Positions 2,004 through 17,493 of a stretch of DNA of 19,367 nt are shown here, in pieces. The stretch's first letter is position 1. The number at the start of each line of letters is the position of its first letter. Below the pieces are notes generated by a model that was not told where the DNA came from, made no database searches, and saw only the letters and a program-made list of their open reading frames with translations. The translations under genes were made by a program, and so were the position numbers. This DNA is from Methanobacteriota archaeon (GTDB lineage: Archaea > Thermoplasmatota > Poseidoniia > Poseidoniales > Thalassarchaeaceae). The DNA is taken from NCBI GenBank assembly GCA_002713585.1, contig PATD01000042.1, forward strand, positions 1 to 19,367. The letters run 5' to 3'.

Positions 2004-2021
2004 TTTTAGGCTCACCTAAAA
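2004..2021. promoter_or_regulatory. Candidate operator 1: perfect palindrome TTTTAGG-ctca-CCTAAAA
   Basis: 7-bp arms with a 4-bp spacer in the 110-bp divergent intergenic region between the genes at 302..1969(-) and 2080..3567(+). It shares the TTTAGG-N4-CCTAAA core with the site at 2059-2074. Confidence 0.35.
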
Positions 2022-2058: not shown

Positions 2059-2074
2059 TTTAGGCGAGCCTAAA
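2059..2074. promoter_or_regulatory. Candidate operator 2: perfect palindrome TTTAGGC-ga-GCCTAAA
   Basis: The 16-bp palindrome ends 5 bp upstream of the ATG at 2080. It lies about 25 bp downstream of the AT-rich TATA-like stretch aaatatcatatat (2028-2040). Its centre is 54 bp from the centre of site 1. Confidence 0.35.
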
Positions 2075-2079: not shown

Positions 2080-3567
2080 ATGGAATGGATACAAATGAAA
2101 ACGCGAACAATGCAAGGAATGACACTAGTTTTACTGATGTTGATGGCAGCTTTTGCCGGATGCGTTGCAGATGACACATCTGATGACACATCTACTAGCA
2201 CAGCAGACACCAGCACAAGTACTGCTGATAGCACCAACAGCACCGCCGATAGCAGTTCATCTGATAGCAGCTCATCTGATAGCAGTTCATCAGATAGCAG
2301 TTCATCTGATAGCAGCTCATCTGATGGTAGTTCTTCAGATGGCAGCAGCAGCGATTCCTCTTCCAGTGGAGGTGCAGCAGTTAGCACAATGGATTCCGAA
2401 GATGGAGGCTACACATACGCTTCCAATGTGGATAACCATCGATCTCTGATGGCTGACATGTGCGACATCAAGACCTACGCCAGCAATGCCCAGTGGACTG
2501 CAGCAAAGGACGTCTACCAGAATGGTAAGAATGCACCTAAGAGCGACGGTTCCTACCGCACCCTTGCAGGATTCGCTGCAGCAGCTGGAAAGCAACACAA
2601 CTACGACATGTTCTACGGAATGAACGGTTCAGTCGATGCTCACATCATGGCCGCTCTAGACGGAACTGGCGACTTTGCGAACACTTCCGACACAGTCCGA
2701 TACCAGGGTGTTGCTAAGCTAACTGCTAACATGGCAATGGTCGCATACACCATCCACGAGTTGAACACTGCAGTCAACAAGGCTGAGGCTGGCAACTGGG
2801 AAAACAATGACTCTGGAGCACCTCACAACTGGGACGAAGGATGGGCATTCTTCCATGGTCCTGATGAGAACGTTGGCTGTGGGCCAGTATCGACTCTCAA
2901 CAAGAGAGCCAACGACTTCGGCACCAAGACCAATACATCATTTGGAGATGTAGCCAACACCACTCATGCTATCACAGACGCAATGGTCGGTGGACTTGCT
3001 GCTCTACAGACAAACGACAGCACTGGATACAATGATGCTGGCGGCGTCGTCGTCAAGAACGTGATCATTGCATACTCTCAGGCAGTCCTGAAGTACACAT
3101 ACAAGATGGACTCCACCACTGATGCTGCTAAGTATCAGGCTGAAGGATACGCATTCTGGAAGACCATCGAAGCTTACGCAGCTGACTACACCGATGCATG
3201 CTACAACAACAAGACCCACACAATGGCTTACGTTGGAGATGCAGCCGATGCTACTGTTTGTGATAACTTTGCATGGTATACCGACTTCTCTATGGGTGGC
3301 GGACCTGCATTCACTGGATGTTACAACGTTGTAAGTCACACTGTGGCTACTGGCGTGAATGAATCCCAGTGTAACGATGGGTTCGGCGCAGTTGGTTCTA
3401 CTGGCATGCCGATGTACTACAACAACTACGGCGCTAGCCAGATGAATGAAGTTCTAGACCTAACGGACGCTACCCAGCTTGGCACATCGTATGATGTGTC
3501 TGCCTGGCTCGCTCCAGTATGGGCTCATTACGGCATCACATCTGATGACATCGGGTCTTACTCCTGA
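2080..3567 (+). CDS. Secreted lipoprotein of unknown function: S/T/D-rich linker plus a ~390-aa globular domain (possibly iron-related)
   Basis: Signal peptide with lipobox (LMAAFAGC), then a ~75-aa low-complexity T/S/D linker including (SSSSD)n. The globular part carries paired motifs NWDEGWAFFHG and AEGYAFWKTIEAY and six further Cys. The ATG at 2095 (MKTRT...) is a plausible alternative start. Confidence 0.75.
   Translation: MEWIQMKTRTMQGMTLVLLMLMAAFAGCVADDTSDDTSTSTADTSTSTADSTNSTADSSSSDSSSSDSSSSDSSSSDSSSSDGSSSDGSSSDSSSSGGAAVSTMDSEDGGYTYASNVDNHRSLMADMCDIKTYASNAQWTAAKDVYQNGKNAPKSDGSYRTLAGFAAAAGKQHNYDMFYGMNGSVDAHIMAALDGTGDFANTSDTVRYQGVAKLTANMAMVAYTIHELNTAVNKAEAGNWENNDSGAPHNWDEGWAFFHGPDENVGCGPVSTLNKRANDFGTKTNTSFGDVANTTHAITDAMVGGLAALQTNDSTGYNDAGGVVVKNVIIAYSQAVLKYTYKMDSTTDAAKYQAEGYAFWKTIEAYAADYTDACYNNKTHTMAYVGDAADATVCDNFAWYTDFSMGGGPAFTGCYNVVSHTVATGVNESQCNDGFGAVGSTGMPMYYNNYGASQMNEVLDLTDATQLGTSYDVSAWLAPVWAHYGITSDDIGSYS
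2248..2367 (+). repeat. In-frame 15-bp tandem repeat encoding (DSSSS)n
   Basis: gatagcagYtcatcW occurs 5 times nearly perfectly (2248-2322), followed by three degenerate units (gatggtagttcttca, gatggcagcagcagc, gattcctcttccagt). Confidence 0.9.
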
Positions 3568-3706: not shown

Positions 3707-5812
3707 ATGATTGAGATGATAGCGAATAAAAAAAGAGCAATTTCCCTGGCAATTCTGATGGTTGTTGGGATGTCTGCCGGATGCCTTTCTGATGACACCG
3801 TTTCGTCTACAGATGACGGTTTGGCTGAGAATCCCGTGGATAGTTTGGTTATTGCATTTGAAGTGAAGGATACTTACACTAACATCGATGACAACCCCCA
3901 ACGTTTAGCTGACTATCTCGCTGAGAAGCTGGATGCTCCCGTAACTTTGTACCCGGTTGATTCCGAAGGTGCAGCCATGGAGGCTTTGCGCTTTGGTAAT
4001 GCGGATATCGGTTTCATGGATGGTGGGGCCGCATGGATTGGCTGGCAACAGTATGATCTTGGTGTGCTTGCTTCTGAGACCAAACCTGATGGGCGAACAT
4101 GGTATGGGGCTCGTGCAGTTGTAATGGCTGATTCAGATATTGCCGCTGCTGATCTTGATAATGATTCAGTCACCGATCCATTTGCTCTTTTCCAGGGTAA
4201 GACCCCGTGTCATACTGGTTGGTTGAAGTCAGCTGGAATGTTGCTTCCCATGGGCTACCTCATTGGAAATGGATATGCAAATGTAATCGGAGATCCGAAT
4301 GATGTTGATTCAATGAGAAATACAATTTTCAATTATTTCAATGAAAACGCTTCAATCCCTGAGTCAGGAGAATTGTACTATAGTTACAAGGGTGCACTTC
4401 GTTGTCTTTCCGAAGATCGTGGCGATATTGCATTTGTTGCAGATTCAACACTTGACTACTATTGTGTTGATCGTAAAGAGAGCAACTCTTGGTGCCTAGA
4501 TGAGGATTTGTATCACGAATTGCCTTTGTTTGGAAAGGCTCCTGGACACCCAGTCATGTATAATCCAGCATTGATGAGCACTGAGAAGGCAGATGCCATA
4601 CGTGATGCATTGGTTGAGATGGATGATGATGATGTAGGCGATGATATCCTAGACGACATCGTGAATTCACCACGTGGTATTGTGGATGTAGGTGGCACTG
4701 AAGCTCACCTTGGCACATATTCGGCAGCGATTCGGAATATTCCCGGAATCCAGGCATACTTCGGCGGTAACTATGGCGTTGTATCAAACTCAACACCTAC
4801 TAAGGATACAATCAGAATTGCATACGAGGTCAAGGATACCTACACAAATGTGGATTCTAACCCTCAGATTCTAGCAGATCGCCTTTCTGATAGATTGGGC
4901 GTTAATGTGGAACTTTACGATGTTAGTTCTGAAGGTGCTATTCTCGAGGCTCTTAGATTCGGTAATGCAGATATTGGATTCATGGATGGAGGAGCTGCAT
5001 GGGTAGGTTGGAAGGAATACGGTCTAGCTGCGTTAGCTGCTGATTTGAAGCCTGATGGCCGTTCATATTACGGTGCACAAGCGTATGTTCGAGCAGATAG
5101 TGACATAGCAGCAGCATATCTTGATGATGATCCATCTACTGATCCTTACGAACTATTCAGAGGAAAGACACCTTGCCACACTGGCTGGCTGAAATCAGCA
5201 GGTATGCTTCTACCGATGGGCTACTTGATTGGTAACGGATATGCCGAAGTTGTCGGCGACCCAGATGACGTCTCTTCTCTCAGAGATACCATCTATAATT
5301 TCTTCAACGAAAATGCATCTATTCCCGAATCTGGTGATTTGTATTACAGTTACGAAGGTGCGCTACGTTGCATGTCATCAGGTCGAGGAGATATCGCATT
5401 TATCGCTGACTCAACTTACGAATTCTATTGTGTTGATCGAAACCGAAATTGGTGCCTAGAGGATGGCGAATATTTGGCCCTCCCTATCTTTGGTAAGGCG
5501 CCGAGCCACCCTGTAATGTATAATCCTGAATTGCTTGATATGGCCACAAGGGCAGCACTGCTTGAAGAGCTGATGGCGATGAATTATGAATCTTGGATTG
5601 AGGAGGGAGATGGTTATTGTTACAACACTAATTCGCGTTCTATTGACGCTAATCTTACTCAGAGTTCCTGTGGTAGTTCGATACTTTCTGAGGTGTTGAA
5701 TACTGGAGGTTTGATTGCAGTGAATACTCAAGAGCACATGGGGAGTTATTCTGATTCAATTTCTTATGTTCCAGGTATTTCTTCATATTTCGAAGATAGA
5801 TACGATATCTGA
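3707..5812 (+). CDS. Bilobal transferrin-family / PhnD-superfamily substrate-binding lipoprotein (putative Fe3+ binding)
   Basis: Signal peptide plus lipobox (GMSAGC). Two tandem ~320-aa copies each carry transferrin-lobe motifs: NADIGFMDGG, (W/Y)YGA(R/Q)A, GKTPCHTGWLKSAG, YYSY(K/E)GALRC, GDIAF(V/I)ADST and AP(G/S)HPVMYNP. The TAAGGA just upstream suggests the ATG at 3716 may be the true start. Confidence 0.85.
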   Translation: MIEMIANKKRAISLAILMVVGMSAGCLSDDTVSSTDDGLAENPVDSLVIAFEVKDTYTNIDDNPQRLADYLAEKLDAPVTLYPVDSEGAAMEALRFGNADIGFMDGGAAWIGWQQYDLGVLASETKPDGRTWYGARAVVMADSDIAAADLDNDSVTDPFALFQGKTPCHTGWLKSAGMLLPMGYLIGNGYANVIGDPNDVDSMRNTIFNYFNENASIPESGELYYSYKGALRCLSEDRGDIAFVADSTLDYYCVDRKESNSWCLDEDLYHELPLFGKAPGHPVMYNPALMSTEKADAIRDALVEMDDDDVGDDILDDIVNSPRGIVDVGGTEAHLGTYSAAIRNIPGIQAYFGGNYGVVSNSTPTKDTIRIAYEVKDTYTNVDSNPQILADRLSDRLGVNVELYDVSSEGAILEALRFGNADIGFMDGGAAWVGWKEYGLAALAADLKPDGRSYYGAQAYVRADSDIAAAYLDDDPSTDPYELFRGKTPCHTGWLKSAGMLLPMGYLIGNGYAEVVGDPDDVSSLRDTIYNFFNENASIPESGDLYYSYEGALRCMSSGRGDIAFIADSTYEFYCVDRNRNWCLEDGEYLALPIFGKAPSHPVMYNPELLDMATRAALLEELMAMNYESWIEEGDGYCYNTNSRSIDANLTQSSCGSSILSEVLNTGGLIAVNTQEHMGSYSDSISYVPGISSYFEDRYDI
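3839..5797 (+). repeat. Internal tandem duplication of a whole binding-protein lobe (aa ~45-352 and ~367-697)
   Basis: The two halves align colinearly and are roughly two-thirds identical by eye. Long identical runs include KTPCHTGWLKSAGMLLPMGYLIGNGYA and FNENASIPESG. Confidence 0.85.
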
Positions 5813-5838
5813 AATCAGGATGGGGGGTCAGACCAAAT

Positions 5839-8199
5839 ATGGTCAGCACTAGAGTTGTAGTCTTCTGTATCTTCGTCCTGGTATGTTCATCCATTAACGT
5901 CCATTCTGAATCAAATACATCGGAGAGTTACACTGTATCTGGCTACGTCCTGCTCCCTGATGGATCTCCTGCGAATGCAACTTCAGTCAAACTTGTTCCA
6001 ATGGATTCCGTTTGGACGGATCAAACAGGTTTCTATTCCATTTCCGGTGTATCTAATGGTGAGCACATAATTCGTGCTTATTTCATGAATGACGGGCACA
6101 CAGTCGCTTATCGTTCGGTAGTTGTAGACGATGATGTTGAATTAAATTGGACCGTAGGTAAGAATTGGGTCATTCCAAGATTGAGTGATAATTTAACAGT
6201 CAATGACTACAACATCACATCAGTCTCGATAAATGAGAACGGTGATATTACTGATTTAGGTGAGAGTGTTGCGTACCTGGGTCCATATGCTATTGGAGAT
6301 TATTACACATTGATAGGCACATTTGATGATGCTGAGGGAACAACTCAGCAGTTCCATTTCCAAGTATCTGAAGGTTCTACCACGTATCCTCGTCCGAATG
6401 AATTCATTTTCCAATACGGCATGAATAACCTGTATGGTTTTCTTACAGATTCAACAGGTGCACCGATGAATGAGGTGCTGGTTAGTATCGAGAATCAGAC
6501 AGTATCCACAAATACTGATGGATTCTATCTTCTTCGTAATCTTGTGATTGGAGATACATACAATGTAAGTTTCAAGCAAGGTAATGTTGAGGTGTTCCAA
6601 ACGGTGAGCCAACAAATCTATTCCGGACCTGGATGGTTAAATGTGTCATCAATAGTGGATGTTGAATTACCCGAATCACCGTATTTCCACCTCTCACTAG
6701 ATACTTCTTCCAATGAATCGTATGAAATTAGGTGGGATGGAGGGAACTTTACAGAATATTTCTCTGTGTATGAAGGTGAAATTTCTGATGATAACACCCC
6801 CATTTACACAGGTACGCAAAGATCGATTGACTGGGTTCCCAGCGAATCTGGAACATTTGTGTTCAACATTATTGCAGTGAATTCGAATGGATCCACAGAA
6901 TCTCCTCAATCCTTCGTTCTAATTGTACTTCCTGATTCTCAATCAGACGATTTGTGGTCAGAAGGTATGAGTTGGGATTATGCCTTGACACATACACCTT
7001 TGAGCTCTTACGGAGTTCACAACAGAACAGTTACTGCGATATCAACTGAAACAGTTCAGGATGCATTTGGCAATACCAGAGAATCTTACTTGGTGAGGGT
7101 TACAGATGGCATTGATGAGGAAGGCGAACAGAGATATCGTTGGGTTGACAAGGATAACTTGCTGAATATCAAGACATATTGGGCAGACGCCCCTAGTTCA
7201 TCGTCCTACTATCAAGAAGGCACACTAGGTTGGGAATTTGTGGATTCCGAAGGTGCAGAGGCATCTTTACTATCTGGGCCAGAGCCCACTGAACTTCATT
7301 TCAATCGAACCAATATCATTGGTGTTCCAGGTCATCCAAATGGTTACGATGATACCATGAATAATGTGTCTATATCCTATGACGTAGAGGTATCAACACC
7401 TGCTGGTTCGTTCATGACCACTTACATCTCGATAACAGATGCGTCTGATGGAATTAGGTCATGGGAATTGTGGTACAACCATACTGTCAGGAATTGGGTG
7501 AAAATCATCGACAGGCTCCCTGGCTCACATTCCGACTCAGTCGAATATGTGTTGACTGCATTCGAGGTGCCTTTGTCTCCCCAATTCTTAGTCGAGGACT
7601 CATCTATTGATACGAAAAATTTCACAATCCGTTGGTCTGATTTCCAAGGGGCTGAATCGTACGAATTGAGCCATAATGGGGTTGTGACTTATGCGGGTTC
7701 TTCCAATTTTTATGAGGCGATGGATCTGGAGGATGGCGAGCATCATTTTGAGATTGTCGCGGTTATGAATTCCGACTATTCAGTTATTGGAAATAGTCTG
7801 AACCTTTCAGTTCTATTCGTTCAACAGCCACCGATTCTTGAAATCGAGAATCAGAATCTAACTATTGGTTCATCCAAGTTAGTTACTTGGTCAGAAATTC
7901 ATGATGCTCAAGCCTATGTTCTAGGAGTAGTGCTTCCGGATGGATCGTATTATGAGGCTTACAATGGGAGTGCAAATAGCTTTGATTTGGAGATTGAAAA
8001 TATTGGGCAACACAGGATTCGAGTTTTGGTGTTAATGGAAGATGGCCCAAATTCTGGATGGTCTGAATCTGTATTCATACTAGCTGAGGATAGTAATTTA
8101 GTAGCAGAGGGTACCAGCGCTTCTTTTTCTTCAGTGGTTTTTGGATTCGTTCTTTTACTAATTCTGCTGATAGCAATTTCAAAACCAAGGAGGGCTTGA
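5839..8199 (+). CDS. Large secreted, C-terminally membrane-anchored surface glycoprotein (CarboxypepD_reg-like and fn3/Ig-like beta-sandwich repeats)
   Basis: N-terminal signal peptide. Two segments look like carboxypeptidase-regulatory folds (YTVSGYVLLPDGSPANATSVKL...GFYSISGV and LYGFLTDSTGAPMNEVLVSI...DGFYLLRNL). At least three segments of the type (Y/F)xIRW...YxV/L look fn3-like. I count 19 N-X-S/T sequons. The C-terminus has a hydrophobic helix plus a KPRRA tail. Confidence 0.7.
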   Translation: MVSTRVVVFCIFVLVCSSINVHSESNTSESYTVSGYVLLPDGSPANATSVKLVPMDSVWTDQTGFYSISGVSNGEHIIRAYFMNDGHTVAYRSVVVDDDVELNWTVGKNWVIPRLSDNLTVNDYNITSVSINENGDITDLGESVAYLGPYAIGDYYTLIGTFDDAEGTTQQFHFQVSEGSTTYPRPNEFIFQYGMNNLYGFLTDSTGAPMNEVLVSIENQTVSTNTDGFYLLRNLVIGDTYNVSFKQGNVEVFQTVSQQIYSGPGWLNVSSIVDVELPESPYFHLSLDTSSNESYEIRWDGGNFTEYFSVYEGEISDDNTPIYTGTQRSIDWVPSESGTFVFNIIAVNSNGSTESPQSFVLIVLPDSQSDDLWSEGMSWDYALTHTPLSSYGVHNRTVTAISTETVQDAFGNTRESYLVRVTDGIDEEGEQRYRWVDKDNLLNIKTYWADAPSSSSYYQEGTLGWEFVDSEGAEASLLSGPEPTELHFNRTNIIGVPGHPNGYDDTMNNVSISYDVEVSTPAGSFMTTYISITDASDGIRSWELWYNHTVRNWVKIIDRLPGSHSDSVEYVLTAFEVPLSPQFLVEDSSIDTKNFTIRWSDFQGAESYELSHNGVVTYAGSSNFYEAMDLEDGEHHFEIVAVMNSDYSVIGNSLNLSVLFVQQPPILEIENQNLTIGSSKLVTWSEIHDAQAYVLGVVLPDGSYYEAYNGSANSFDLEIENIGQHRIRVLVLMEDGPNSGWSESVFILAEDSNLVAEGTSASFSSVVFGFVLLLILLIAISKPRRA

Positions 8200-8204
8200 T
8201 TTAG

Positions 8205-9305
8205 ATGGATAAGGGAAAACTTGCCTTAATCCAAGTATCCATTCTCTTGATTGGTTTCTTTGGATGGTACATTCTATCTGATCAAGACATACAAGAATCA
8301 GAGCAGCCTTACTCGATTACTGTAACTGATTCAAATGGAGTGGTACACCAGTTCGAAGAATCTCCTTCGCGTGTTGCTATTTCCAATACCTATATTGCGA
8401 GTGCAATGAGAATGTTGAATGTCTCTTCGTCCGTAGTTGTAGGAGTTTCTGGTGACTTCGATGATTCGATATTATGGCCTGAATATAATGAGACAAAGAT
8501 AGTTCAGAATTCGGCCCATTCTGAGATTGATTTTGAGGCATTGTACGATGCTCGACCCGATGTATACATCGTTTTCGCTACCAATGGTATGGTCGATACT
8601 AGTGCCATACGAAACAAACTTGATGAGGTAGGTATCAGGGTTATTGCATTGGATTTTTACAAATATGATTACCTCCGAACCGAGTTTCAGGTAATTGCTG
8701 AATTGTTCAATAAGCAAGAAGAAATGAATGATCTTTTAGCAGATTTTGATTCGATAGAATTACTAATTGAAGGAAGGATTTCTTCTCTTGAATCCGACAA
8801 CCGTCCAACTGTTGTTATGGAACATCATGCTTCCCTTACTCGTGATCCAGTAGTTTTGACCGGAACATCTCAATGGACTGATATGATAGAAAAAGCAGGA
8901 GGGATAAATTTCTTTGCTGAACTTCCGGGACATACCACTCATGTTGACATGGAGGCAATCCTTGATGCGGATCCTGATGTAATCCTATTTGACGGAATAA
9001 CATTTGATATTGGATTCAATCGATTTGATACAGACGGAATTTCTTGTGATCAACATATAGAATTCGTGTCCGAACGTCCTGGTTTTGATGGAGTTCAAGC
9101 TGTAATAGATGATAGAATGCTAATTTTTTCTGGTGAATTTGCAGGTCCTATGATGATTCATGGTCTTCCAACACTTGCCAAGCACTTACATCCTGAAAAA
9201 TTCCTTGACATTGATACAGATTCGTATCTAGACGAATATTTCTCCGAATATCATGGTGTTGAGAGAATAGGAAAGTTCGTTTGCCAATCAGGTAATGGAG
9301 ATTAA
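8205..9305 (+). CDS. ABC substrate-binding protein, FecB/BtuF/HmuT class (iron-siderophore / heme / cobalamin type), N-terminal TM anchor
   Basis: N-terminal hydrophobic anchor, then the family-typical ITVTDSNGVVHQFEESPSRVAISNTYIASAMRMLN opening and the PDVYIVF and DPDVILF motifs. An AGGAGG sequence lies upstream. The gene overlaps the permease gene by 11 nt. Confidence 0.8.
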   Translation: MDKGKLALIQVSILLIGFFGWYILSDQDIQESEQPYSITVTDSNGVVHQFEESPSRVAISNTYIASAMRMLNVSSSVVVGVSGDFDDSILWPEYNETKIVQNSAHSEIDFEALYDARPDVYIVFATNGMVDTSAIRNKLDEVGIRVIALDFYKYDYLRTEFQVIAELFNKQEEMNDLLADFDSIELLIEGRISSLESDNRPTVVMEHHASLTRDPVVLTGTSQWTDMIEKAGGINFFAELPGHTTHVDMEAILDADPDVILFDGITFDIGFNRFDTDGISCDQHIEFVSERPGFDGVQAVIDDRMLIFSGEFAGPMMIHGLPTLAKHLHPEKFLDIDTDSYLDEYFSEYHGVERIGKFVCQSGNGD

Positions 9306-10404
9306 TCCAATGGAGTCGATCACTGAACGTCATATCCAGAATGGATATGTACAGATTCTCATAATGGCAGTAGTTGCAAGTTGTACCATAATACTGGGTC
9401 TATTTGCAATGGGTATCGGTTCTTCTGAACAGTTAGATCAACTATCGACACTGAAAATAATTCTAGGTATTTCAGAGCCTGACTCATTACAGTCCGATAT
9501 AATCTGGCATCTCAGATTTCCTAGAATACTAATGGCAATTACATGTGGAGTTGCTCTTGCCACTGCTGGAGCACTTATGCAGGGATGTTTGGGAAACCCC
9601 CTGGTTTCCCCACTTACTCTTGGAGTTGCATCCGGTGCATCACTAGGTGCCGCCCTTGCAATTGTATTGGGTTTGCAAGTAATCGATTTCCTTGAACCTT
9701 TTTTGTCAAACCTCCCCGGTCCGCTTTCAAATTTGGATTTTGAATCGATAGGAATCGTGGCCAATGCATTTTTCTTTTCGTTAATTGTGGTTGTAATTAT
9801 CATACAATTGGGGAAAATGCGTTCTATATCTCCTGAATCATATATTCTTGTAGGCATTGCAATCACATTCATCTGTGGAGCAATAGTATCAACAATTCAG
9901 TATTTTGCATCTGATGCTGAGATTTCTCAACTGACGCATTGGTCCTTTGGTTCACTGTCAAGGCCAGATCTTGGTCAGACAATGTGGATTGCTGCACTGA
10001 TTATTTGTCTAATGCCCTATGCAATCATATTTGCTTGGGATTTGAATTCGATGGCTTTAGGGGGTGACGATTTTGCAATTTCAACAGGTGTAGACCCACA
10101 AGCTACAAGGGTTACAATATTGGTATTGTCAGCTGGCATGACATCTATTGTCATAGCATTCACTGGTTTGATTGGTTTTGTCGGTCTTGCTGCACCTCAC
10201 ATGACTCGTCTAATTATAGGAAATGATTATCGTAAATTGTTACCATGTTCCGCGGTTTCTGGGGCATTTTTGGTATTAATAGCAGACACTATTGGTCGTA
10301 CTATTGTTGCCCCAATCATCATTCCAGTCGGAGTGATGTTATCCGTAATTGGGGGGCCATTTTTCATGTATCTCCTCCTTGCAAATAAGGGGGTGTCACA
10401 TTGA
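9295..10404 (+). CDS. ABC permease, FecCD/BtuC/HmuU family
   Basis: Polytopic protein with the hallmark RFPRILMAITCGVALATAGALMQGCLGNPLVSPLTLGVASGASLG. Its stop overlaps the next gene's TTG start. Confidence 0.9.
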   Translation: MEINPMESITERHIQNGYVQILIMAVVASCTIILGLFAMGIGSSEQLDQLSTLKIILGISEPDSLQSDIIWHLRFPRILMAITCGVALATAGALMQGCLGNPLVSPLTLGVASGASLGAALAIVLGLQVIDFLEPFLSNLPGPLSNLDFESIGIVANAFFFSLIVVVIIIQLGKMRSISPESYILVGIAITFICGAIVSTIQYFASDAEISQLTHWSFGSLSRPDLGQTMWIAALIICLMPYAIIFAWDLNSMALGGDDFAISTGVDPQATRVTILVLSAGMTSIVIAFTGLIGFVGLAAPHMTRLIIGNDYRKLLPCSAVSGAFLVLIADTIGRTIVAPIIIPVGVMLSVIGGPFFMYLLLANKGVSH

Positions 10405-11207
10405 ATTCGATACTCGAGGCCAAGAATCTGAGTTTCAGTTGGGGCAATAAACAAGTTTTTTCTGGCGTTGGTTTTGATATTCAGCCAAACCAGATAGTTG
10501 CTATTGTCGGGGTTAATGGGGCAGGTAAATCTACACTATTGAAATGCCTAAATCGTATACTTGTTCCTTCTACAGGTAGTATATCCATCAATTCTGAAGA
10601 AGTTAGTACAATGCCTATTCTTGAATTAGCGAAACAAGTATCCTATGTTCCACAGTCAGTATCTACAAGTTTCCCATTAGATGTATATGACGTTGTTATG
10701 CTTGGAAGGAGGCCATACATTTCTTGGAGAATTAGTGATGAAGACCGGGAGTTTGTTTCTAACACTATTTCTTTATTCGATTTAGAAGATTTTGCTTTCA
10801 GAAGATTTGATCAGTTATCTGGAGGAGAGAGGCAACGTGTGATTATTGCTAAGGCGGTTGCCCAAAACCCTTCATTATTTCTTTTCGATGAACCTACCAG
10901 TGATCTTGATCTTAAGAATCAGATTATTGTGATGAAATCAATTCGTAAACTCGTGGACAATAAGGACAACAATTGTTCGGCTTTGATTGCGATTCACGAT
11001 CTAAATACTGCTGCAAGGTTTGCAGATTCTATTTTGATGTTACATGAGGGTGAAATGAAGGCGTTTGGCTCCCCAGAGATAGTTTTCACTGAAGAAAATA
11101 TTTCAGAAGTTTTTGGTGTGACCAGTGACTTGATATCATCGAATGATGGTGCACCAATGAGGATACATGTTCTCGATATCCCCAATGACGAGTCGGCGGG
11201 AAATTGA
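10401..11207 (+). CDS. ABC ATPase, FepC/HmuV/BtuD type
   Basis: Walker A GVNGAGKST, signature LSGGERQRV and Walker B LFLFDEPTSDLD. The TTG start overlaps the permease stop (tTGA). Confidence 0.9.
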   Translation: MNSILEAKNLSFSWGNKQVFSGVGFDIQPNQIVAIVGVNGAGKSTLLKCLNRILVPSTGSISINSEEVSTMPILELAKQVSYVPQSVSTSFPLDVYDVVMLGRRPYISWRISDEDREFVSNTISLFDLEDFAFRRFDQLSGGERQRVIIAKAVAQNPSLFLFDEPTSDLDLKNQIIVMKSIRKLVDNKDNNCSALIAIHDLNTAARFADSILMLHEGEMKAFGSPEIVFTEENISEVFGVTSDLISSNDGAPMRIHVLDIPNDESAGN

Positions 11208-11226
11208 AACTTAAAGTGGTGAAAAA

Positions 11227-11679
11227 ATGACTGAAAAAGAACTAATGATTATTTTTGGAACAGAGACTGGAAATGCAGAAATGGTTGCTGAAGATGCTCA
11301 ACGAATGGCGCCAGATTATGGTTTGAATGCTACTATCCATGACATGGATGATTTGAGTGTGGATGATCTTTCCGGAGCCACACGTCTCCTAGTAACTTGC
11401 AGCACCTGGGGCGATGGTGATCAGCCAATGAATGCTGAAGATTTGTATGAATCTATGGAGGATGCAGATGGTGGAACTATGGATGGCATAAATTTTGCAG
11501 TCCTAGCATTAGGGGATACCGCCTACGAACTGTTCTGTGAATCAGGAAAGCAATGGGATGCAGTTCTTGAGGAAAAGGGCGGGAACCGAGTTGCGGAAAG
11601 AATTGACCTTGACACAGATTTTGAAGATTTCACAGAAGAGTGGCTTCAGTCTGCATTGGAAGCATTCCAGAATGTGTGA
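11227..11679 (+). CDS. Flavodoxin (short FMN-binding, MioC/CysJ-FMN-domain-like)
   Basis: IFGTETGNAEMVAED, LVTCSTWGDGDQP and FAVLALGDTAYELFCESGK are classic flavodoxin FMN-loop motifs. A GGTGA sequence lies upstream. Confidence 0.85.
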   Translation: MTEKELMIIFGTETGNAEMVAEDAQRMAPDYGLNATIHDMDDLSVDDLSGATRLLVTCSTWGDGDQPMNAEDLYESMEDADGGTMDGINFAVLALGDTAYELFCESGKQWDAVLEEKGGNRVAERIDLDTDFEDFTEEWLQSALEAFQNV

Positions 11680-11705
11680 TAGTCCTCATTTCTAAGGTGA
11701 ATTGA

Positions 11706-12527
11706 ATGACTGAAAAATCAGCTGACATACCTCGTCATGCTCCACCTAAGGGCGCGAGTACAAGACAACAGGAGTTGTTGTATGATCCAAATGTGGCTAC
11801 CTCATCACACGCTGAACAAGCTAGGACTCTTATTGAGAGGGTAGGTACTGCAACATTATGCACGATTTCACACAGCCATGAGGGTCATCCTTACGGTTCA
11901 TTTGTTACATTCGCAATGGATGGCGAGCATCCTATCTTTTTGATAAGTCGACTAGCAGAACACACAAAGAATCTGCTTCAGAATTCTAAATCCTCACTTT
12001 TGGTTGCAGAAGGAGGGGATGGCAATCCACTTGCTTTGGGCCGAGTGACATTAGTTGGAATTTGTGAACAAGTTTCGGACGATGAACGGCCCCGCTTGAA
12101 GGAAATCTTTGTTCAACGACACCCTGATTCAAAATTCTATGCTGATTTCGGCGATTTCCTATTTTTCCGTCTTGAGGTAGATTCTGTGCGATATATCGGA
12201 GGTTTTGGTCGTATGTCGTGGTTCGGAGATGTGGATTGGGCTGAGGCTGAACCAGATCCGTTGTATTCATCTGCTGATGGGATAATCGAACACATGAATG
12301 ATGATCATCAGGATGCTATGCTATTGATTTGCCATACTATGTCGAAGGCAACTGATGCTACAGAACCTGTGATGACGGGAGTGGACCGGTATGGGTTTGA
12401 GATGTCGGTTATGACAGGGGATGGAAGGCGTCCGATTCGAGTTGCGTTTGAGAATACATGCGATAATCCAGATGATGTTAGAAGTGCCATGGTCAATTTG
12501 GTAAAAATCGCTCGTTCAAAGGTATGA
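11706..12527 (+). CDS. HugZ/HutZ-like heme-utilisation protein (PNPOx-like split barrel + C-terminal DUF2470)
   Basis: The N-terminal ~170 aa match the pyridoxamine-5'-phosphate-oxidase-like pattern (GTATLCTIS...GHPYGSFVTFAMD...PIFLISRLAEHTKNL...SSLLV...LGRVTLVG...DFLFFRLEVDSVRYIGGFGRMSWF). The C-terminal IIEHMNDDHQDAMLLICH is the DUF2470 signature. An AAGGTGA sequence lies upstream. Confidence 0.75.
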   Translation: MTEKSADIPRHAPPKGASTRQQELLYDPNVATSSHAEQARTLIERVGTATLCTISHSHEGHPYGSFVTFAMDGEHPIFLISRLAEHTKNLLQNSKSSLLVAEGGDGNPLALGRVTLVGICEQVSDDERPRLKEIFVQRHPDSKFYADFGDFLFFRLEVDSVRYIGGFGRMSWFGDVDWAEAEPDPLYSSADGIIEHMNDDHQDAMLLICHTMSKATDATEPVMTGVDRYGFEMSVMTGDGRRPIRVAFENTCDNPDDVRSAMVNLVKIARSKV

Positions 12528-12625
12528 CTGGTCGATGGTGATGACTAAATCAGTTGTCCGTTTCGTAGGGTTTAGGCTAGTTCTACAAATACTCTAGTTA
12601 GGCATGATTTCAGGTTCGTGAGTTT

Positions 12626-13345
12626 ATGTCTAAATCAGTGGTACATATCGAGAATGCTTCGATAGGTTTCTCACCAGATGAACCCCTCATCAAAAATCTC
12701 AATCTGGAAATCAATCAGGGCGAGATTGTCGCCATTGCTGGCCCATCAGGTATTGGGAAGACAACACTTCTCCGTACGATTGCAGGTCTCGTTCCAATGC
12801 TTGAAGGAGAAATGACTCTCTTTGGTCGAAATAGCAAAGCATCTCGTGGTGAACTTGGATACATACCACAAAGGCTTGGCCTCATCCGGCACGCATCTGT
12901 CTATCACAATGTGTTAATGGGCGCCTTGACAAGTACAGCTGGCGTATGGTTCCCGTTTTCATTTGAGGCCAGACGTCGTACATTAGAATCGATTGATGCA
13001 ATGGGTATTAGTGAGAAAAAAAGAACTCCAATTCGACTTTTATCTGGAGGTCAACAGAGACGCGTTGCAACCGCAAGAACACTAGCCCAACAACCGTCAA
13101 TCATTCTTGCTGATGAATTCCTTGGAGAATTAGATGAAGAAACAATGGAAAGCGTCCTATCAAAGGTCACCAATTATGTTCGTACAAATAATGCGACGTT
13201 AATCGTAGTGGAACACGATATATCGCGTGCTAAGAGGATGGCGGACCACCTTCTTATTCTTGATGATGGCCAATTAAATCCATTTGTCGATCAACCAATT
13301 TCTATGCAGATTTCCATGCGTTTAGATAAGGAGTTGAACGTATGA
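12626..13345 (+). CDS. phnC: ABC ATPase, PhnC-like
   Basis: Walker A GPSGIGKTT, signature LSGGQQRRVATAR and Walker B IILADEF. A PhnC-style insert follows the Q-loop (LGYIPQRLGLIRHASVYHNVLMGAL...). The gene is translationally coupled (ATGA) to a PhnE-type permease. Confidence 0.75.
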   Translation: MSKSVVHIENASIGFSPDEPLIKNLNLEINQGEIVAIAGPSGIGKTTLLRTIAGLVPMLEGEMTLFGRNSKASRGELGYIPQRLGLIRHASVYHNVLMGALTSTAGVWFPFSFEARRRTLESIDAMGISEKKRTPIRLLSGGQQRRVATARTLAQQPSIILADEFLGELDEETMESVLSKVTNYVRTNNATLIVVEHDISRAKRMADHLLILDDGQLNPFVDQPISMQISMRLDKELNV

Positions 13346-14277
13346 GCGACTCTGGTTCTAAAGTTGATTTTACTACCCTCGCCTCTAGATTGTGGTACTC
13401 ATCTCGTTGGTTTCTTCTGTTTATCGGCTTGTTAGTTGTAGCTTTTCGAGTAACTAACAGCATGGATCCCAACTGGGGGCGATTAGCTAATACGAATAAC
13501 AATCTGGTTACCTTCTTCCAAGAATCTCTGTGGCCTCCTGACTGGAGTGTTATTGAAGCACAAGCATACCCTCCTTGTTTGGCGGCTCCAGGCCTATCTT
13601 TCACCTGCTCAACAGCATGGTTGGGTATGATTGAGACTCTCAAAATTGCATTCGTTGCAACTATTCTAGGTATGACGATATCGTTCCCATTGTCATTGCT
13701 CGCTTCCCGTAATCTTAGCCCTAATTGGGTTAGTTACCCTGCTCGTTTCTTACTCGCAGGGTCTCGAAGTTTGCCAAGTATCATTTGGGCTCTTTTCTTC
13801 GTTATCGTGATAGGTTTCGGGCCATTATCCGGAATATTAGCTATGACTGTCTATACGATTGGGTATCTCGGTAAACTACAGTACGAAACCATCGAGGGTA
13901 TCGATCGTGGACCCTTGGAAGCATCCAAGGCGATGGGCCATGGATGGTTTGAGCGTTCTTTTGGTGTAATTCTCCCTGAATCCGCAAATGGCCTAATCTC
14001 GCAGGTGATTTTCATGTTTGAATATAATTTCAGACATGGGACTGTGATTGGAATTGTGGGTGCAGGTGGGATCGGATATTACATCAATCTCTATCTCAAA
14101 TTCCTACAATATGACAAGGTAATCGCCTACCTGATCATTATCTTCGTTGTAGTATTAATTCTAGATGTGATATCCATTTATGCCCGGTCTTTGTTTACCG
14201 AGGATGGCGATGTACGACGTCAATCTTGGTGGTCAATTTTACTCCCTCCCTCTATGTTGAGGAATGAAGATGACTGA
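13342..14277 (+). CDS. phnE: ABC permease, PhnE-like
   Basis: Matches the PhnE pattern: IETLKIAFVATILGMTISFPLSLLASRNL, RSLPSIIWALFFVIVIGFGPLSGILAMTVYTIGYLGKL, EASKAMG, FEYNFRHGTVIGIVGAGGIGY. Confidence 0.8.
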   Translation: MSDSGSKVDFTTLASRLWYSSRWFLLFIGLLVVAFRVTNSMDPNWGRLANTNNNLVTFFQESLWPPDWSVIEAQAYPPCLAAPGLSFTCSTAWLGMIETLKIAFVATILGMTISFPLSLLASRNLSPNWVSYPARFLLAGSRSLPSIIWALFFVIVIGFGPLSGILAMTVYTIGYLGKLQYETIEGIDRGPLEASKAMGHGWFERSFGVILPESANGLISQVIFMFEYNFRHGTVIGIVGAGGIGYYINLYLKFLQYDKVIAYLIIIFVVVLILDVISIYARSLFTEDGDVRRQSWWSILLPPSMLRNEDD

Positions 14278-14329: not shown

Positions 14330-14521
14330 TCACTCAATCTTTCGGACGTTGATTGCGTTTGGTCCCTTAGGGCCCTCGCCGACATCGAATTCTACTGAGT
14401 CACCGTCTCTGATGGTTCCCTCGACTTGACTCTTGTGGACGAATAGATCGTCCCCTTCTTCTTGTTCGATGAAACCGAACCCCTTTGTCTGATTGAACCA
14501 CTTTACTGTTCCTTGTGCCAT
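14330..14521 (-). CDS. Cold-shock domain protein (CspA family)
   Basis: [33 protein letters not shown] contains the RNP1 (KGFGFI) and RNP2 (VFVH-like) motifs. I prefer the ATG at 14521, which is preceded by AAGGAA, over the ORF-track start at 14542. Confidence 0.9.
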
Positions 14522-14634
14522 AGTTCCTTGGCGCATCGACATAATACTTGAACAGGACTGGAGGAATTACACGTTTACCCCCGAAAGTAATCAATTCTCA
14601 AAGATGCGGAGTTTTTACTTCCAAGCCGAGAATT

Positions 14635-14874
14635 CTAATTTTCTTCAGGGTCTTCTGCTTTGATTCGTATGCCACCGTCCTTGTAGTGGACATAGATGTG
14701 GTGTGGTATTTTCTCAGTAAGAGCAGCTAGCGCCTCATACACTTCATCTTCATCAACTTTGAATGCCTTGGCAGCCTTCTTAGTTGACCATGGATTGTTG
14801 ACGAAGTCGTTGTCCTCCAAGCAAATCCACTTGAACATCCGCTTCTCGAACTTGGTCAAGTCCGCCATCGCCAT
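14635..14874 (-). CDS. Small hypothetical protein (79 aa), immediately downstream of gpsA
   Basis: Clean ORF 38 bp downstream of the gpsA stop on the same strand. I recognise no motif. The antisense ORF 14696..14887 is shorter and low-complexity. Confidence 0.5.
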   Translation of the reverse strand: MAMADLTKFEKRMFKWICLEDNDFVNNPWSTKKAAKAFKVDEDEVYEALAALTEKIPHHIYVHYKDGGIRIKAEDPEEN

Positions 14875-15914: not shown

Positions 15915-16015
15915 CGAGCAGGTCCGGTTTCAGGGGGTCTTGACCGTTGGGGATGGAGCCGGGGTCAAAGGACCAATTCCGGCAGGACTGTAAGGGCACG
16001 GTGAGGAACCGTATC

Positions 16016-17206: not shown

Positions 17207-17259
17207 GGAAATTTTTGATGCGTTGCATTGAAGCATATGAGCCCCGCCTCACGGGTTAA

Positions 17260-17344: not shown

Positions 17345-17493
17345 CCATGACTACCCAATTTCGTCTAACGAATAGGCGTGTAGTAAAATTGCGCATATGC
17401 GGTGAATTATTCCCTCTGCATCGATAAGTAAAATCAATGAGGACTCTTTGAGAATCCGAATGATTATGCCTATCCTGATTTTGTTCGAAGGTA

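What the first reader, a model, noticed from the sequence alone, without database searches (positions are those of the whole stretch)
12626..14277. Orphan PhnC/PhnE transporter with no adjacent PhnD and no phosphonate catabolism: likely membrane partner of the transferrin-like binding protein
PhnC- and PhnE-type genes are translationally coupled (ATGA) but lack the usual neighbouring phnD. The only PhnD-superfamily binding protein in the window is the bilobal transferrin-like lipoprotein about 7 kb upstream on the same strand. No C-P lyase, phosphonatase or phosphite/hypophosphite oxidation gene is present in the window. If the pairing is real, a Phn-type ABC translocator would import iron, or an iron-anion complex, delivered by a transferrin-fold protein. 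This pairing would be mechanistically novel. Automated annotation would also mislabel it as phosphonate transport.
Basis: inference. Interest (0 to 1): 0.65.

Follow-up and report, generated by a model that had tools for sequence, protein, structure and literature searches.

The report
Archaeal transferrin-dependent iron ABC importer
Two genes that databases label as a phosphonate transporter in a marine archaeon are most likely the membrane pump for metal, probably iron, delivered by a true transferrin-like surface protein, so a supposed core "phosphonate uptake" trait of abundant ocean-surface archaea is probably iron uptake.

Summary
A PhnC-like ATPase gene (12626-13345) and a PhnE-type permease gene (13342-14277) overlap by ATGA. 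No binding-protein gene is adjacent and the window holds no phosphonate catabolism genes. The window comes from a Marine Group II archaeon (Thalassarchaeaceae).

The proposed pairing with the bilobal lipoprotein at 3707-5812 is strongly supported:
- In 61 of 70 informative related loci, a homologue of that protein lies directly upstream of phnC-phnE.
- In the window and close relatives, a ~6.8 kb iron/haem-type module separates them.
- A 14-bp palindrome, TTAGG-N4-CCTAA, occurs about 90 times more often than in shuffles. It lies almost only upstream of the binding-protein, FEA1-like and phnC genes.
- Distant homologous operons begin with a DtxR/MntR-family metal regulator.

The binding protein is a genuine transferrin-family member:
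- Its best solved-structure matches are lactoferrin and transferrin (profile E = 5e-39; the top 50 fold hits are all transferrins).
- Both lobes keep the Asp-Tyr-Tyr-His iron ligands, the anion-binding Thr and the signature cysteine pair. Lys replaces the anion-binding Arg.
- Its match to E. coli PhnD is marginal.

The most likely function is Fe(III) import, probably with a carbonate-type anion. This parallels FbpABC but uses different protein families. No binding or transport was measured. I found no publication describing this system.

The parts
2005..2020 (.). Operator-like palindrome TTTAGGCTCACCTAAA (core TTAGG-N4-CCTAA). It is the first of two boxes upstream of the FEA1-like gene.
   Evidence: This is an exact match, and the window holds only two exact matches. 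In related loci the core motif occurs 130 times in 1.14 Mb, against 0-4 in shuffles. Of those, 123 lie within 300 bp upstream of transferrin-like, FEA1-like or phnC genes.
2059..2074 (.). Second operator-like palindrome, TTTAGGCGAGCCTAAA, ending 6 bp before the FEA1-like start codon.
   Evidence: Tandem pairs of boxes are also common upstream of the FEA1-like and transferrin-like genes of related loci.
2080..3567 (+). FEA1-related lipoprotein with a lipobox (AGC) and a Ser/Asp-rich linker. It is the first gene of the co-directional cluster and carries the shared upstream boxes.
   Evidence: NF038033: 339 bits against cut-off 250; Pfam Fea1 E = 7e-25. All 15 FEA1-like genes in related loci carry the box. 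The AlphaFold2 model is all-helical and has no PDB fold match.
3707..5812 (+). Bilobal transferrin-family lipoprotein. It is the inferred substrate-binding protein of the PhnC/PhnE translocator. N-lobe is about residues 41-365 and C-lobe about 366-701.
   Evidence: Pfam: Phosphonate-bd 137.9 bits and Transferrin 96.7 bits. PDB phmmer: lactoferrin E = 1.6e-24. Foldseek: the top 50 hits are all transferrins. Ligand positions are D105/Y133/T170/K174/Y227/H281 in the N-lobe and D427/Y455/T492/K496/Y549/H601 in the C-lobe. The lobes are 58% identical to each other. The lipobox G25-C26 is invariant.
5839..8199 (+). 786-aa surface protein with CarboxypepD_reg domains and a C-terminal membrane anchor. 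It is the first gene of the module that separates the binding protein from phnCE.
   Evidence: The same arrangement occurs in L009 and L012.
8205..11207 (+). Complete type II (FecCD-type) ABC importer made of three genes: Peripla_BP_2 binding protein (8205-9305), FecCD permease (9295-10404) and ATPase (10401-11207). It is a separate, self-sufficient siderophore/haem-type system.
   Evidence: (PF01497, PF01032, PF00005).
11227..11679 (+). Flavodoxin gene.
   Evidence: PF00258, E = 5e-31. In L008 a flavodoxin gene with its own box lies between the transferrin-like gene and phnC.
11706..12527 (+). CREG beta-barrel/DUF2470 protein, HugZ-like (haem-utilisation type).
12572..12585 (.). Degenerate remnant of the box, TTAGGCTAGTTCTA, 41 bp upstream of the phnC start codon.
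   Evidence: The left arm is intact and the right arm is decayed. The homologous site in the close relative L007 reads TTAGGCTAGCCATA. Calling it a remnant is an inference.
12626..13345 (+). PhnC-like ABC ATPase.
   Evidence: PF00005. Best NCBIfam hit is TIGR02315 at 155.3 bits, below the cut-off of 266.1. It is 33% identical to E. coli PhnC.
13342..14277 (+). PhnE-type permease (type I importer membrane domain), translationally coupled to phnC by an ATGA overlap.
   Evidence: TIGR01097: 236.7 bits against cut-off 216.7. Nearest solved relative is MetI. It is 34% identical to a reconstructed E. coli PhnE.

Best explanation
The phnC/phnE pair encodes the ATPase and the (probably homodimeric, MetI-like) permease of a binding-protein-dependent type I ABC importer. 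Its cognate binding protein is the lipid-anchored bilobal transferrin-family protein encoded at 3707-5812.

Proposed mechanism:
- Each lobe captures Fe(III) through Asp, two Tyr and His, together with a carbonate-type synergistic anion held by Thr, Lys and a helix N-terminus.
- A loaded lobe docks on the PhnE dimer.
- ATP binding and hydrolysis by PhnC opens the lobe and moves the metal, with or without its anion, into the cell.

The ancestral arrangement is a three-gene operon: binding protein, phnC, phnE. In this lineage a second iron/haem acquisition module (surface protein, FecCD-type importer, flavodoxin, HugZ-like protein) lies between the binding-protein gene and phnCE. The whole co-directional cluster from 2080 to 14277 sits behind two operator-like palindromes, which are probably bound by a DtxR-family metal regulator.

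Shown here: the gene content, the synteny, the shared motif, transferrin-family membership and conservation of the ligand residues.

Inferred, not shown: metal binding, docking, transport, the identity of the metal, and the identity of the regulator.
For: Synteny:
- A transferrin-like binding-protein gene lies directly upstream of phnC-phnE in 61 of 70 informative non-redundant Marine Group II loci. Of the first 60 scored, 39 are bilobal, 19 are single-lobe and 2 show three lobe matches.
- L008, a close relative (PhnE 92% identical), has transferrin-like gene, flavodoxin, phnC, phnE.
- L009 and L012 have the window's arrangement, and the truncated L007 matches what it covers of it.
- Distant single-lobe relatives (31-41% identical) on high-GC contigs again show binding protein, PhnC-like gene and PhnE (TIGR01097 234-253 bits). 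A DtxR/MntR-family regulator gene lies upstream: adjacent in L088 and L089, about 1.4 kb upstream in L090.

Co-regulation:
- Exact TTAGG-N4-CCTAA occurs 130 times in 1.14 Mb, against 0-4 in shuffles.
- 123 of the 130 lie within 300 bp upstream of transferrin-like, FEA1-like or phnC genes.
- With one mismatch allowed, the box is found at 46 of 79 phnC genes, 44 of 62 transferrin-like genes and 15 of 15 FEA1-like genes.

Transferrin identity:
- phmmer against PDB finds lactoferrin at E = 1.6e-24.
- A profile of 22 lobes gives E = 5e-39, and the best 60 hits are all transferrins.
- The Foldseek top 50 are all transferrins, E about 1e-26.
- hhalign against E. coli PhnD gives only 51% probability over 80 columns.
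- The TIGR03431 PhnD equivalog scores 51.9 bits against a cut-off of 261.
- phmmer of one lobe against 1.84 billion representatives finds only 310 clusters. These include eukaryotic multi-lobe transferrins at 33-36% identity.

Ligands:
- The positions equivalent to lactoferrin D60, Y92, T117, Y192 and H253 are conserved in both lobes. R121 is replaced by Lys.
- 78 of the 109 lobes extracted from related loci, and both window lobes, carry the full D-Y-T-K-Y-H signature, at only 50-60% overall identity.
- The cysteine pair equivalent to lactoferrin C115/C198 is present in all 111 lobes.

Context: the surrounding genes are a FEA1-related lipoprotein, a FecCD-type importer, a flavodoxin and a HugZ-like protein.
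Against: - No experiment exists. Metal binding and transport are inferred from residues and context only.
- The permease is a bona fide PhnE-family member, and the known substrates of that family are oxyanions (established knowledge).
- The transferrin anion site is homologous to the PhnD phosphonate site, so an anion-only ligand is not formally excluded.
- The anion-site Arg is replaced by Lys.
- In the window itself there is no intact box upstream of the transferrin-like gene or phnC. The two genes are 6.8 kb apart, and co-transcription across that distance is unproven.
- A clade of related bilobal proteins has degenerate ligand sets, especially in the C-lobe.
- L075 and L079 have no binding-protein gene next to phnCE. 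In L083 and L084 only the FEA1-like gene is adjacent.
- The regulators next to the distant operons score best against MntR (manganese) models, all below cut-off.
- Tully 2019 reports a phosphate binding-protein gene only in a subset of Marine Group II clades, so a role in phosphorus uptake would fill a plausible gap.
Confidence: 0.68

Rival explanations
1. It is what the annotation says: a phosphonate, phosphite or phosphate importer. Under this reading the transferrin-like protein is a divergent PhnD-type oxyanion-binding protein, and Marine Group II archaea use it for phosphorus acquisition.
For: - PF12974 is the top Pfam hit for the binding protein (137.9 bits).
- PhnE passes its equivalog cut-off.
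- Sources and Tully 2019 annotate the system as phosphonate transport.
- E. coli PhnCDE and picocyanobacterial PhnD1 also handle phosphate (abstracts of PMC6469041 and PMC10284923).
- A Pst-type binding protein is reported only in some Marine Group II clades.
Against: - The binding protein fails the PhnD equivalog (51.9 against 261 bits).
- It barely aligns with E. coli PhnD and gets no tblastn hit from it.
- It matches transferrins at E = 5e-39.
- It conserves four metal-ligand residues that an oxyanion site does not need.
- The system shares its upstream box with an FEA1-type iron protein. Distant homologous operons sit beside DtxR/MntR metal regulators rather than Pho-type regulators.
- No catabolic phn genes occur in 1.27 Mb of flanking DNA.
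Confidence: 0.12
2. The same transporter architecture imports a different hard metal ion rather than iron, for example manganese or another tri- or tetravalent cation.
For: - The regulators beside the distant operons score higher against MntR than against DtxR models, all below cut-off.
- Transferrins are known to bind many metals. The PDB hits include Al, Ti, Cr, Bi, Yb and Cu complexes.
- One distant relative has Ser in place of the ligand Asp and Thr in place of the Lys.
Against: - A two-tyrosinate, Asp, His plus carbonate site is the classical Fe(III) site (established knowledge of transferrins).
- The co-regulated and neighbouring genes are iron-type: FEA1-like protein, FecCD/haem-type importer, HugZ-like protein, flavodoxin.
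- Iron is the scarce metal in surface sea water (established knowledge).
Confidence: 0.1
3. The transferrin-like lipoprotein is only a surface scavenger, store or sensor that does not dock on PhnE. Under this reading phnCE in this genome works with another binding protein encoded elsewhere, or is a decaying remnant.
For: - The genes are 6.8 kb apart in the window.
- The phnC box is degenerate here.
- Some relatives lack an adjacent binding-protein gene.
- A bilobal binding protein is unusual for an ABC importer.
Against: - Adjacency is the rule across Marine Group II, including single-lobe forms of ordinary binding-protein size.
- It also holds in distant lineages.
- phnC and phnE are intact, translationally coupled and highly conserved: PhnE is 62-98% identical across the 120 best hits.
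- The other ABC importer in the window has its own binding protein.
Confidence: 0.05

Closest known systems
PhnCDE phosphonate/phosphate ABC importer (E. coli type)
   Same: The permease is a PhnE-family type I membrane domain (TIGR01097 passed; 34% identical to E. coli PhnE). The ATPase is closest to PhnC (33% identical). The binding protein belongs to the same broad PF12974 superfamily. The usual operon logic of binding protein, ATPase and permease is kept in relatives.
   Different: The binding protein is not a PhnD equivalog; it is a transferrin-family member with metal ligands. No phosphonate catabolism genes are linked to it. Regulation appears metal-type rather than Pho-type. PhnC falls well below its equivalog cut-off. 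Marine Group II PhnE carries an extra extracellular loop segment with two invariant cysteines.
Eukaryotic transferrins (serum transferrin, lactoferrin, ovotransferrin, melanotransferrin; multi-lobe protist and algal transferrins)
   Same: - Significant sequence and fold matches.
- Asp/Tyr/Tyr/His ligands.
- The anion-site motif T-x3-(R/K)-x-A-G.
- A conserved cysteine pair.
- Bilobal architecture.
- Some family members have degenerate lobes, as melanotransferrin does.
- An ichthyosporean transferrin (Amoebidium) also has Lys at the anion site.
   Different: This protein is a lipoprotein of an archaeon and is encoded in an operon with an ABC translocator. Delivery would therefore be by docking on a permease, not by receptor-mediated endocytosis. 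The two lobes are 58% identical, so the duplication is independent of and much younger than the animal one. Single-lobe forms also exist. Lys replaces the vertebrate Arg.
FbpABC / HitABC / FutABC ferric-ion ABC importers ('bacterial transferrin' FbpA)
   Same: The proposed mechanism is the same: a Venus-flytrap binding protein holds Fe(III) with tyrosinates and a synergistic anion and passes it to a type I ABC importer.
   Different: The families differ for every part. FbpA belongs to another binding-protein cluster, and no such family appears among the hits. FbpB is a fused two-domain permease, whereas this permease is a single 311-aa PhnE-type domain. This is functional analogy, not membership.
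Algal phytotransferrin ISIP2a / FEA1
   Same: An FEA1-domain lipoprotein is encoded immediately upstream and carries the same upstream boxes. A review reports that phytotransferrin and transferrin histories trace back to phosphonate-binding periplasmic proteins (PMC7676907, citing McQuaid 2018).
   Different: Here the FEA1-like protein coexists with a true transferrin homologue and an ABC translocator. Its AlphaFold2 model is all-helical with no solved fold match, so I could not show that it acts as a binding protein for PhnE.

Membership tests
PhnCDE phosphonate ABC transporter | PhnE-type permease (NCBIfam TIGR01097 equivalog at or above cut-off) | tested here: met
   236.7 bits against cut-off 216.7.
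PhnCDE phosphonate ABC transporter | PhnC ATPase equivalog (TIGR02315 at or above cut-off) | tested here: not met
   It is the best hit, but at 155.3 bits against cut-off 266.1. It is 33% identical to E. coli PhnC.
PhnCDE phosphonate ABC transporter | PhnD-type phosphonate-binding protein (TIGR03431 equivalog) | tested here: not met
   51.9 bits against cut-off 261.1. hhalign against E. coli PhnD gives 51% probability over 80 columns. No tblastn hit from E. coli PhnD.
PhnCDE phosphonate ABC transporter | Linkage to phosphonate, phosphite or hypophosphite catabolism genes | tested here: not met
   No such Pfam family in the window or in the precomputed gene tables of L001-L006. E. coli PhnG, PhnH, PhnI and PhnJ give no hit in 1.27 Mb of loci. 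Whole genomes, phosphonatase and PtxD were not searched.
PhnCDE phosphonate ABC transporter | Transport of phosphonate, phosphite or phosphate | not testable with these tools
   Requires binding or uptake assays.
Transferrin family (PF00405) | Significant match to the family by sequence and by fold | tested here: met
   PF00405: 96.7 bits against cut-off 20.3. PDB: E = 1.6e-24 for the single sequence and 5e-39 for the lobe profile. Foldseek: top 50 all transferrins.
Transferrin family (PF00405) | Iron ligands Asp, Tyr, Tyr, His in each lobe | tested here: met
   D105/Y133/Y227/H281 and D427/Y455/Y549/H601 align with lactoferrin D60/Y92/Y192/H253. The full signature is present in 78 of 109 related lobes.
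Transferrin family (PF00405) | Synergistic-anion site: Thr and Arg at the N-terminus of a helix | tested here: inconclusive
   Thr (T170, T492) and the A-G of the helix start are conserved. Arg is replaced by Lys (K174, K496), as in an Amoebidium transferrin. Whether Lys supports carbonate binding is untested.
Transferrin family (PF00405) | Conserved cysteine pair (lactoferrin C115-C198 equivalents) | tested here: met
   C168 and C233 (and C490 and C555) are present in 111 of 111 lobes. Disulfide formation itself is not testable here.
Transferrin family (PF00405) | Reversible Fe(III) binding | not testable with these tools
   Requires spectroscopy or metal analysis.
FbpABC-type ferric ABC importer | FbpA-type binding protein and fused two-domain FbpB permease | tested here: not met
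   No FbpA-type family appears among the Pfam or NCBIfam hits of the binding protein. The permease has one BPD_transp_1 domain in 311 aa. The resemblance is functional only.
DtxR-family metal regulon | Operator bound by a DtxR/IdeR/MntR-type repressor | tested here: inconclusive
   The conserved TTAGG-N4-CCTAA palindrome is specific to these genes. DtxR/MntR-family genes lie next to homologous operons in L088-L090. The likeness of the arms to IdeR/DtxR boxes is from memory. No regulator gene lies in the window, and binding is untested.

The most novel reading that the evidence does not exclude
A true transferrin and a phytotransferrin-type (FEA1) lipoprotein belong to one metal-regulated regulon with a PhnE-type ABC translocator, and this is a core trait of Marine Group II archaea. 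That would make this system a surviving example of the state from which eukaryotic transferrins arose, or from which they were exchanged: a PhnD-superfamily binding protein still coupled to its ABC importer. It would also mean that carbonate-dependent uptake of inorganic Fe(III), so far described for diatoms, operates in the most abundant archaea of the surface ocean. What has been counted as phosphonate uptake there would then be iron uptake.
Probability: 0.3. Interest if true: 0.9.

Novelty: new variant of a known kind. Interest (0 to 1): 0.72.

Why it matters
Marine Group II archaea are among the most abundant heterotrophs of the surface ocean and have never been cultured. Their physiology is therefore read from annotations. 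One published core trait, "transport of phosphonates" (Tully 2019), rests on this very system.

If it is an iron importer fed by a transferrin, several things follow:
- Their phosphorus and iron ecology needs re-reading, and metagenomic counts of phnC, phnD and phnE as phosphonate markers are inflated by these genes.
- The transferrin family gains prokaryotic members that still work with an ABC transporter. This makes the long-discussed origin of transferrin from periplasmic binding proteins directly testable.
- A PhnE-type permease would be shown to move a metal or a metal-anion complex.
- A simple, very specific operator motif becomes available for defining a metal regulon in an uncultured archaeal order.

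Tried and rejected
1. FEA1-like lipoprotein as an alternative Venus-flytrap binding protein. In L083, L084 and L021 it lies directly upstream of phnC (gap of about 200 bp in L083), and in L083/L084 it takes the transferrin-like gene's place. Its AlphaFold2 model is all-helical (core pLDDT about 85-95), with no significant PDB fold or sequence match. I therefore do not claim that it docks on PhnE. It remains a co-regulated partner of unknown role.

2. Tying the palindrome to iron through flavodoxin. Only the flavodoxin inserted inside the operon of L008 carries a box. The flavodoxins near gpsA in eight other loci do not.

3. Looking for an intact box upstream of the transferrin-like gene or phnC in the window. 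None was found with up to 2 mismatches, only a decayed half-site at 12572-12585.

4. The extra cysteine-containing loop of PhnE as a marker of transferrin association. It is specific to Marine Group II and absent from the transferrin-linked PhnE of L089 and L090.

5. The sigma-70 promoter and intrinsic-terminator scan. Promoter-like sites are fewer than in shuffles and terminator-like sites are only modestly above them. The scan is not applicable to an archaeon.

6. Literature. Eight full-text searches found no description of a prokaryotic transferrin coupled to PhnCE or of FEA1-like proteins in Marine Group II. The McQuaid 2018 paper is not held, so I cannot exclude that it mentions archaeal homologues.

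7. Rfam found only a tRNA in the window.

8. Not attempted: mirror-tree co-evolution (confounded by shared species phylogeny), complex prediction (no tool available), and whole-genome searches.
Full report
**What is in the window.**
Best protein matches carry Candidatus Thalassarchaeaceae and Poseidoniaceae names, so the window comes from a Marine Group II archaeon. Genes from 2080 to 14277 all lie on the + strand with short gaps. In order they are:
- FEA1-related lipoprotein (2080-3567).
- A 701-aa bilobal lipoprotein with Phosphonate-bd and Transferrin Pfam matches (3707-5812).
- A 786-aa anchored surface protein (5839-8199).
- A complete FecCD-type importer with its own Peripla_BP_2 binding protein (8205-11207).
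- Flavodoxin (11227-11679).
- A HugZ-like CREG/DUF2470 protein (11706-12527).
- A PhnC-like ATPase (12626-13345).
- A PhnE-type permease (13342-14277).

Downstream, on the opposite strand, lie a cold-shock gene, a small conserved ORF and gpsA.

**Observation check.**
The two genes sit at the stated coordinates and overlap by ATGA. PhnE passes its NCBIfam equivalog cut-off (236.7 against 216.7 bits). PhnC is the best hit for the ATPase but is far below cut-off (155.3 against 266.1). No binding-protein gene is adjacent, and no phosphonate catabolism family appears in the window.

**Is the transferrin-like protein the partner?**
I fetched PhnE-centred loci from metagenome assemblies and from one genome per GTDB species (508 relatives found, best 80 kept). 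I then mapped the window's proteins onto them by tblastn. Of 82 non-redundant loci, 70 have at least 1.1 kb upstream of phnC.

- In 61 of the 70, a homologue of the transferrin-like protein lies directly upstream of phnC, with a median gap of 122 bp. Of the first 60 scored, 39 are bilobal, 19 are single-lobe and 2 show three lobe matches.
- L008, a close relative (PhnE 92% and GpsA 98% identical), has transferrin-like gene, flavodoxin, phnC, phnE.
- L009 and L012 have exactly the window's arrangement. L007 (PhnE 97% identical) matches it as far as its truncated contig reaches.
- In L021, L083 and L084 the FEA1-like gene is the one directly upstream of phnC.
- L075 and L079 have no binding-protein gene nearby.

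The gene order downstream of phnE (small ORF, then gpsA) is conserved throughout. The common and probably ancestral arrangement is therefore binding protein, phnC, phnE. In the window's lineage a ~6.8 kb module has been inserted, or the upstream part has been replaced.

The same three-gene operon appears around distant single-lobe relatives (31-41% identical to the window's N-lobe) on high-GC contigs. There PhnE again passes TIGR01097 (234-253 bits). A DtxR/MntR-family metal regulator gene lies upstream, adjacent in L088 and L089 and about 1.4 kb upstream in L090.

**Co-regulation.**
Two perfect palindromes, TTTAGGC-N2-GCCTAAA, lie just upstream of the FEA1-like gene in the window (2005-2020 and 2059-2074).

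- In the related loci, the core TTAGG-N4-CCTAA occurs 130 times in 1.14 Mb, against 0-4 in each of 20 shuffles.
- 123 of the 130 lie within 300 bp upstream of a transferrin-like, FEA1-like or phnC gene.
- None lies upstream of gpsA, the small ORF or phnE.
- With one mismatch allowed, 46 of 79 phnC genes, 44 of 62 transferrin-like genes and 15 of 15 FEA1-like genes carry it.
- L090 has a one-mismatch copy about 20 bp upstream of its binding-protein start codon.

The arms resemble the outer arms of IdeR/DtxR iron boxes. That likeness is from memory and was not tested. In the window itself, phnC is preceded only by a decayed copy (12572-12585; the close relative L007 has a better one). The transferrin-like gene has none. 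Here the cluster may therefore depend on the boxes at 2005-2074; this is an inference.

**What the binding protein is.**
By sequence its nearest solved relatives are lactoferrins and transferrins (E = 1.6e-24).

- A profile of 22 archaeal lobes reaches E = 5e-39, and the best 60 PDB hits are all transferrins.
- An AlphaFold2 model (mean pLDDT 76.5) has only transferrins among its top 50 Foldseek hits, at E about 1e-26.
- Profile comparison with E. coli PhnD gives 51% probability over 80 columns.
- The PhnD equivalog model scores 51.9 bits against a cut-off of 261.
- E. coli PhnD finds nothing in 1.27 Mb of these loci.
- phmmer of one lobe against 1.84 billion representative proteins finds only 310 clusters, not the very large PhnD family.
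- Beyond archaea, the named relatives are multi-lobe transferrins of Chromosphaera, Amoebidium and Bryopsis, at 33-36% identity.

From the alignment with human lactoferrin and motif positions:

| Lactoferrin residue | Role | N-lobe | C-lobe |
|---|---|---|---|
| Asp60 | iron ligand | D105 | D427 |
| Tyr92 | iron ligand | Y133 | Y455 |
| Tyr192 | iron ligand | Y227 | Y549 |
| His253 | iron ligand | H281 | H601 |
| Thr117 | anion binding | T170 | T492 |
| Arg121 | anion binding | K174 (Lys) | K496 (Lys) |

The helix-start Ala-Gly and the Cys115/Cys198 pair are also present. Of the 109 lobes extracted from the related loci, 78 carry the full D-Y-T-K-Y-H signature, as do both window lobes, at only 50-60% overall identity. 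Both cysteines are invariant in all 111 lobes. An Amoebidium transferrin also has Lys at the anion site. The two lobes of the window protein are 58% identical, and Poseidoniaceae have single-lobe forms. The duplication is therefore independent of the animal one. The N-terminus has a lipobox with an invariant Gly-Cys.

**How it most likely works.**
PhnE's nearest solved relative is MetI, a type I importer membrane domain that works as a homodimer. I propose that a metal-loaded lobe of the lipid-anchored transferrin docks on a PhnE dimer. ATP turnover by PhnC then opens the lobe and passes Fe(III), with or without its synergistic anion, through the permease. The logic is that of FbpABC, built from different families. 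The iron assignment rests on three things:
- The ligand set.
- The co-regulated FEA1-type protein.
- The neighbouring iron/haem-type genes, plus DtxR/MntR regulators beside distant homologous operons.

None of these is a measurement.

**Rival explanations.**
- A true phosphorus oxyanion importer. The permease family, the Pfam superfamily and the reported patchy distribution of Pst in Marine Group II speak for it. The ligand conservation, transferrin affinity, metal-type regulation and absence of catabolic genes speak against it.
- Another metal as substrate.
- A scavenger protein that does not dock on PhnE.

**What is known.**
Sources name these proteins PhnE, [quoted passage not shown] or "PhnD/SsuA/transferrin family substrate-binding protein". 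Tully 2019 lists phosphonate transport as a core Marine Group II trait. A survey of marine phosphonate metabolism does not mention Poseidoniales, Euryarchaeota or Marine Group II in its main text. A SAR11 binding-protein study excluded PF00405 when counting binding-protein transcripts. [quoted passage not shown] I found no paper describing a prokaryotic transferrin coupled to PhnCE. The primary phytotransferrin paper could not be read.

**Verdict.**
I file this as a new variant of a known kind: a binding-protein-dependent ferric-type ABC importer that uses a genuine transferrin-family binding protein and a PhnE-type translocator in archaea. The pairing is close to settled by comparative genomics. 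The substrate is a well-founded inference that needs biochemistry.

Noticed in passing
window 2005-2020 and 2059-2074; related loci L004-L086: A 14-bp palindrome, TTAGG-N4-CCTAA, marks a small regulon (transferrin-like, FEA1-like and phnC genes) across Marine Group II. It often occurs as two boxes about 44 bp apart. Seven further exact copies lie elsewhere, for example L027:1329 between a nucleotidyltransferase gene and a membrane-protein gene. Those could be further regulon members.
   Followed up: partly
window 2080-3567; L083:7333-8985: The FEA1-related lipoprotein has a long Ser/Asp-rich linker, and its C-terminal part contains repeated C-Y-N motifs. Its AlphaFold2 model is all-helical, with no significant solved fold or sequence match. 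In L083 and L084 it occupies the slot directly upstream of phnC, where the transferrin-like gene normally sits.
   Followed up: partly
L024, L038, L040, L043, L048, L049, L052, L053, L057, L058, L060, L069, L071, L072, L076, L082, L085: In one clade the bilobal binding proteins next to phnC have degenerate metal-ligand sets. The C-lobe has usually lost all ligands, and the N-lobe often has Phe, Asp or Asn in place of Tyr or His. These loci usually carry an FEA1-like gene upstream. Several also hold a separate single-lobe copy with the intact D-Y-T-K-Y-H signature on the opposite strand. This recalls the inactive lobes of melanotransferrin.
   Followed up: partly
window 5839-12527 compared with L008: This locus is a hotspot of gene-content change. 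L008 shares 98% GpsA and 92% PhnE identity with the window, but its transferrin-like protein is only about 64% identical and it lacks the surface-protein/FecCD/HugZ-like module. The window's transferrin-like protein is closest (about 80%) to those of more distant genomes such as L009 and L012. This suggests replacement or recombination of the upstream part. G+C is also slightly lower across 6-11 kb (0.39-0.43).
   Followed up: partly
window 13555-13620 (PhnE residues about 72-93): Marine Group II PhnE has an insertion of about 18-24 residues in the first extracellular loop, with two invariant cysteines (YP-C...FTCSTAW). It is absent from E. coli PhnE and from the transferrin-linked PhnE of the high-GC contigs.
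   Followed up: partly
window 3606-3677: A long hairpin, predicted as RNA, lies in the 139-bp gap between the FEA1-like and transferrin-like genes. The 146-nt region folds at -50.3 kcal/mol, with a z-score of -2.2 against shuffles. It could be a processing or attenuation element, or nothing.
   Followed up: partly
P0200; P0245, P0257: A 1156-aa relative that is 50% identical over the whole query may be a three-lobed archaeal form. Eukaryotic relatives reach 8-14 matched stretches in one protein (Chromosphaera 1894 aa, Bryopsis 2619 aa).
   Followed up: no
L017, L035, L044, L076: Contigs carrying this typical Marine Group II locus are deposited in genome bins named Salinimicrobium, Rhodobiaceae, Flavobacteriaceae and Rhodobacteraceae. 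One binding protein is also named as from a Rhodobiaceae bacterium. Binning contamination is the likely cause.
   Followed up: no
window 14635-14874 (-): A 79-aa ORF with no Pfam match is conserved (about 50-97% identity) between phnE and gpsA in most related loci. The cold-shock gene beside it (14330-14542) is present only in the closest relatives.
   Followed up: no
window 15000-19367: G+C rises to 0.51-0.56 here. The region holds a tRNA at 17260-17341 (+) and a 555-aa ORF with collagen-type triple-helix repeats (17494-19161), overlapped by long antisense ORFs.
   Followed up: no
L063, L064, L066, L068, L070, L074, L078, L086 (upstream of flavodoxin): Flavodoxin genes located between the small ORF and gpsA share their own conserved upstream element (about ACTTYGTWAACAA, followed in five of the eight by TYATTGAAAGCAG). 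It is distinct from the TTAGG-N4-CCTAA box.
   Followed up: no
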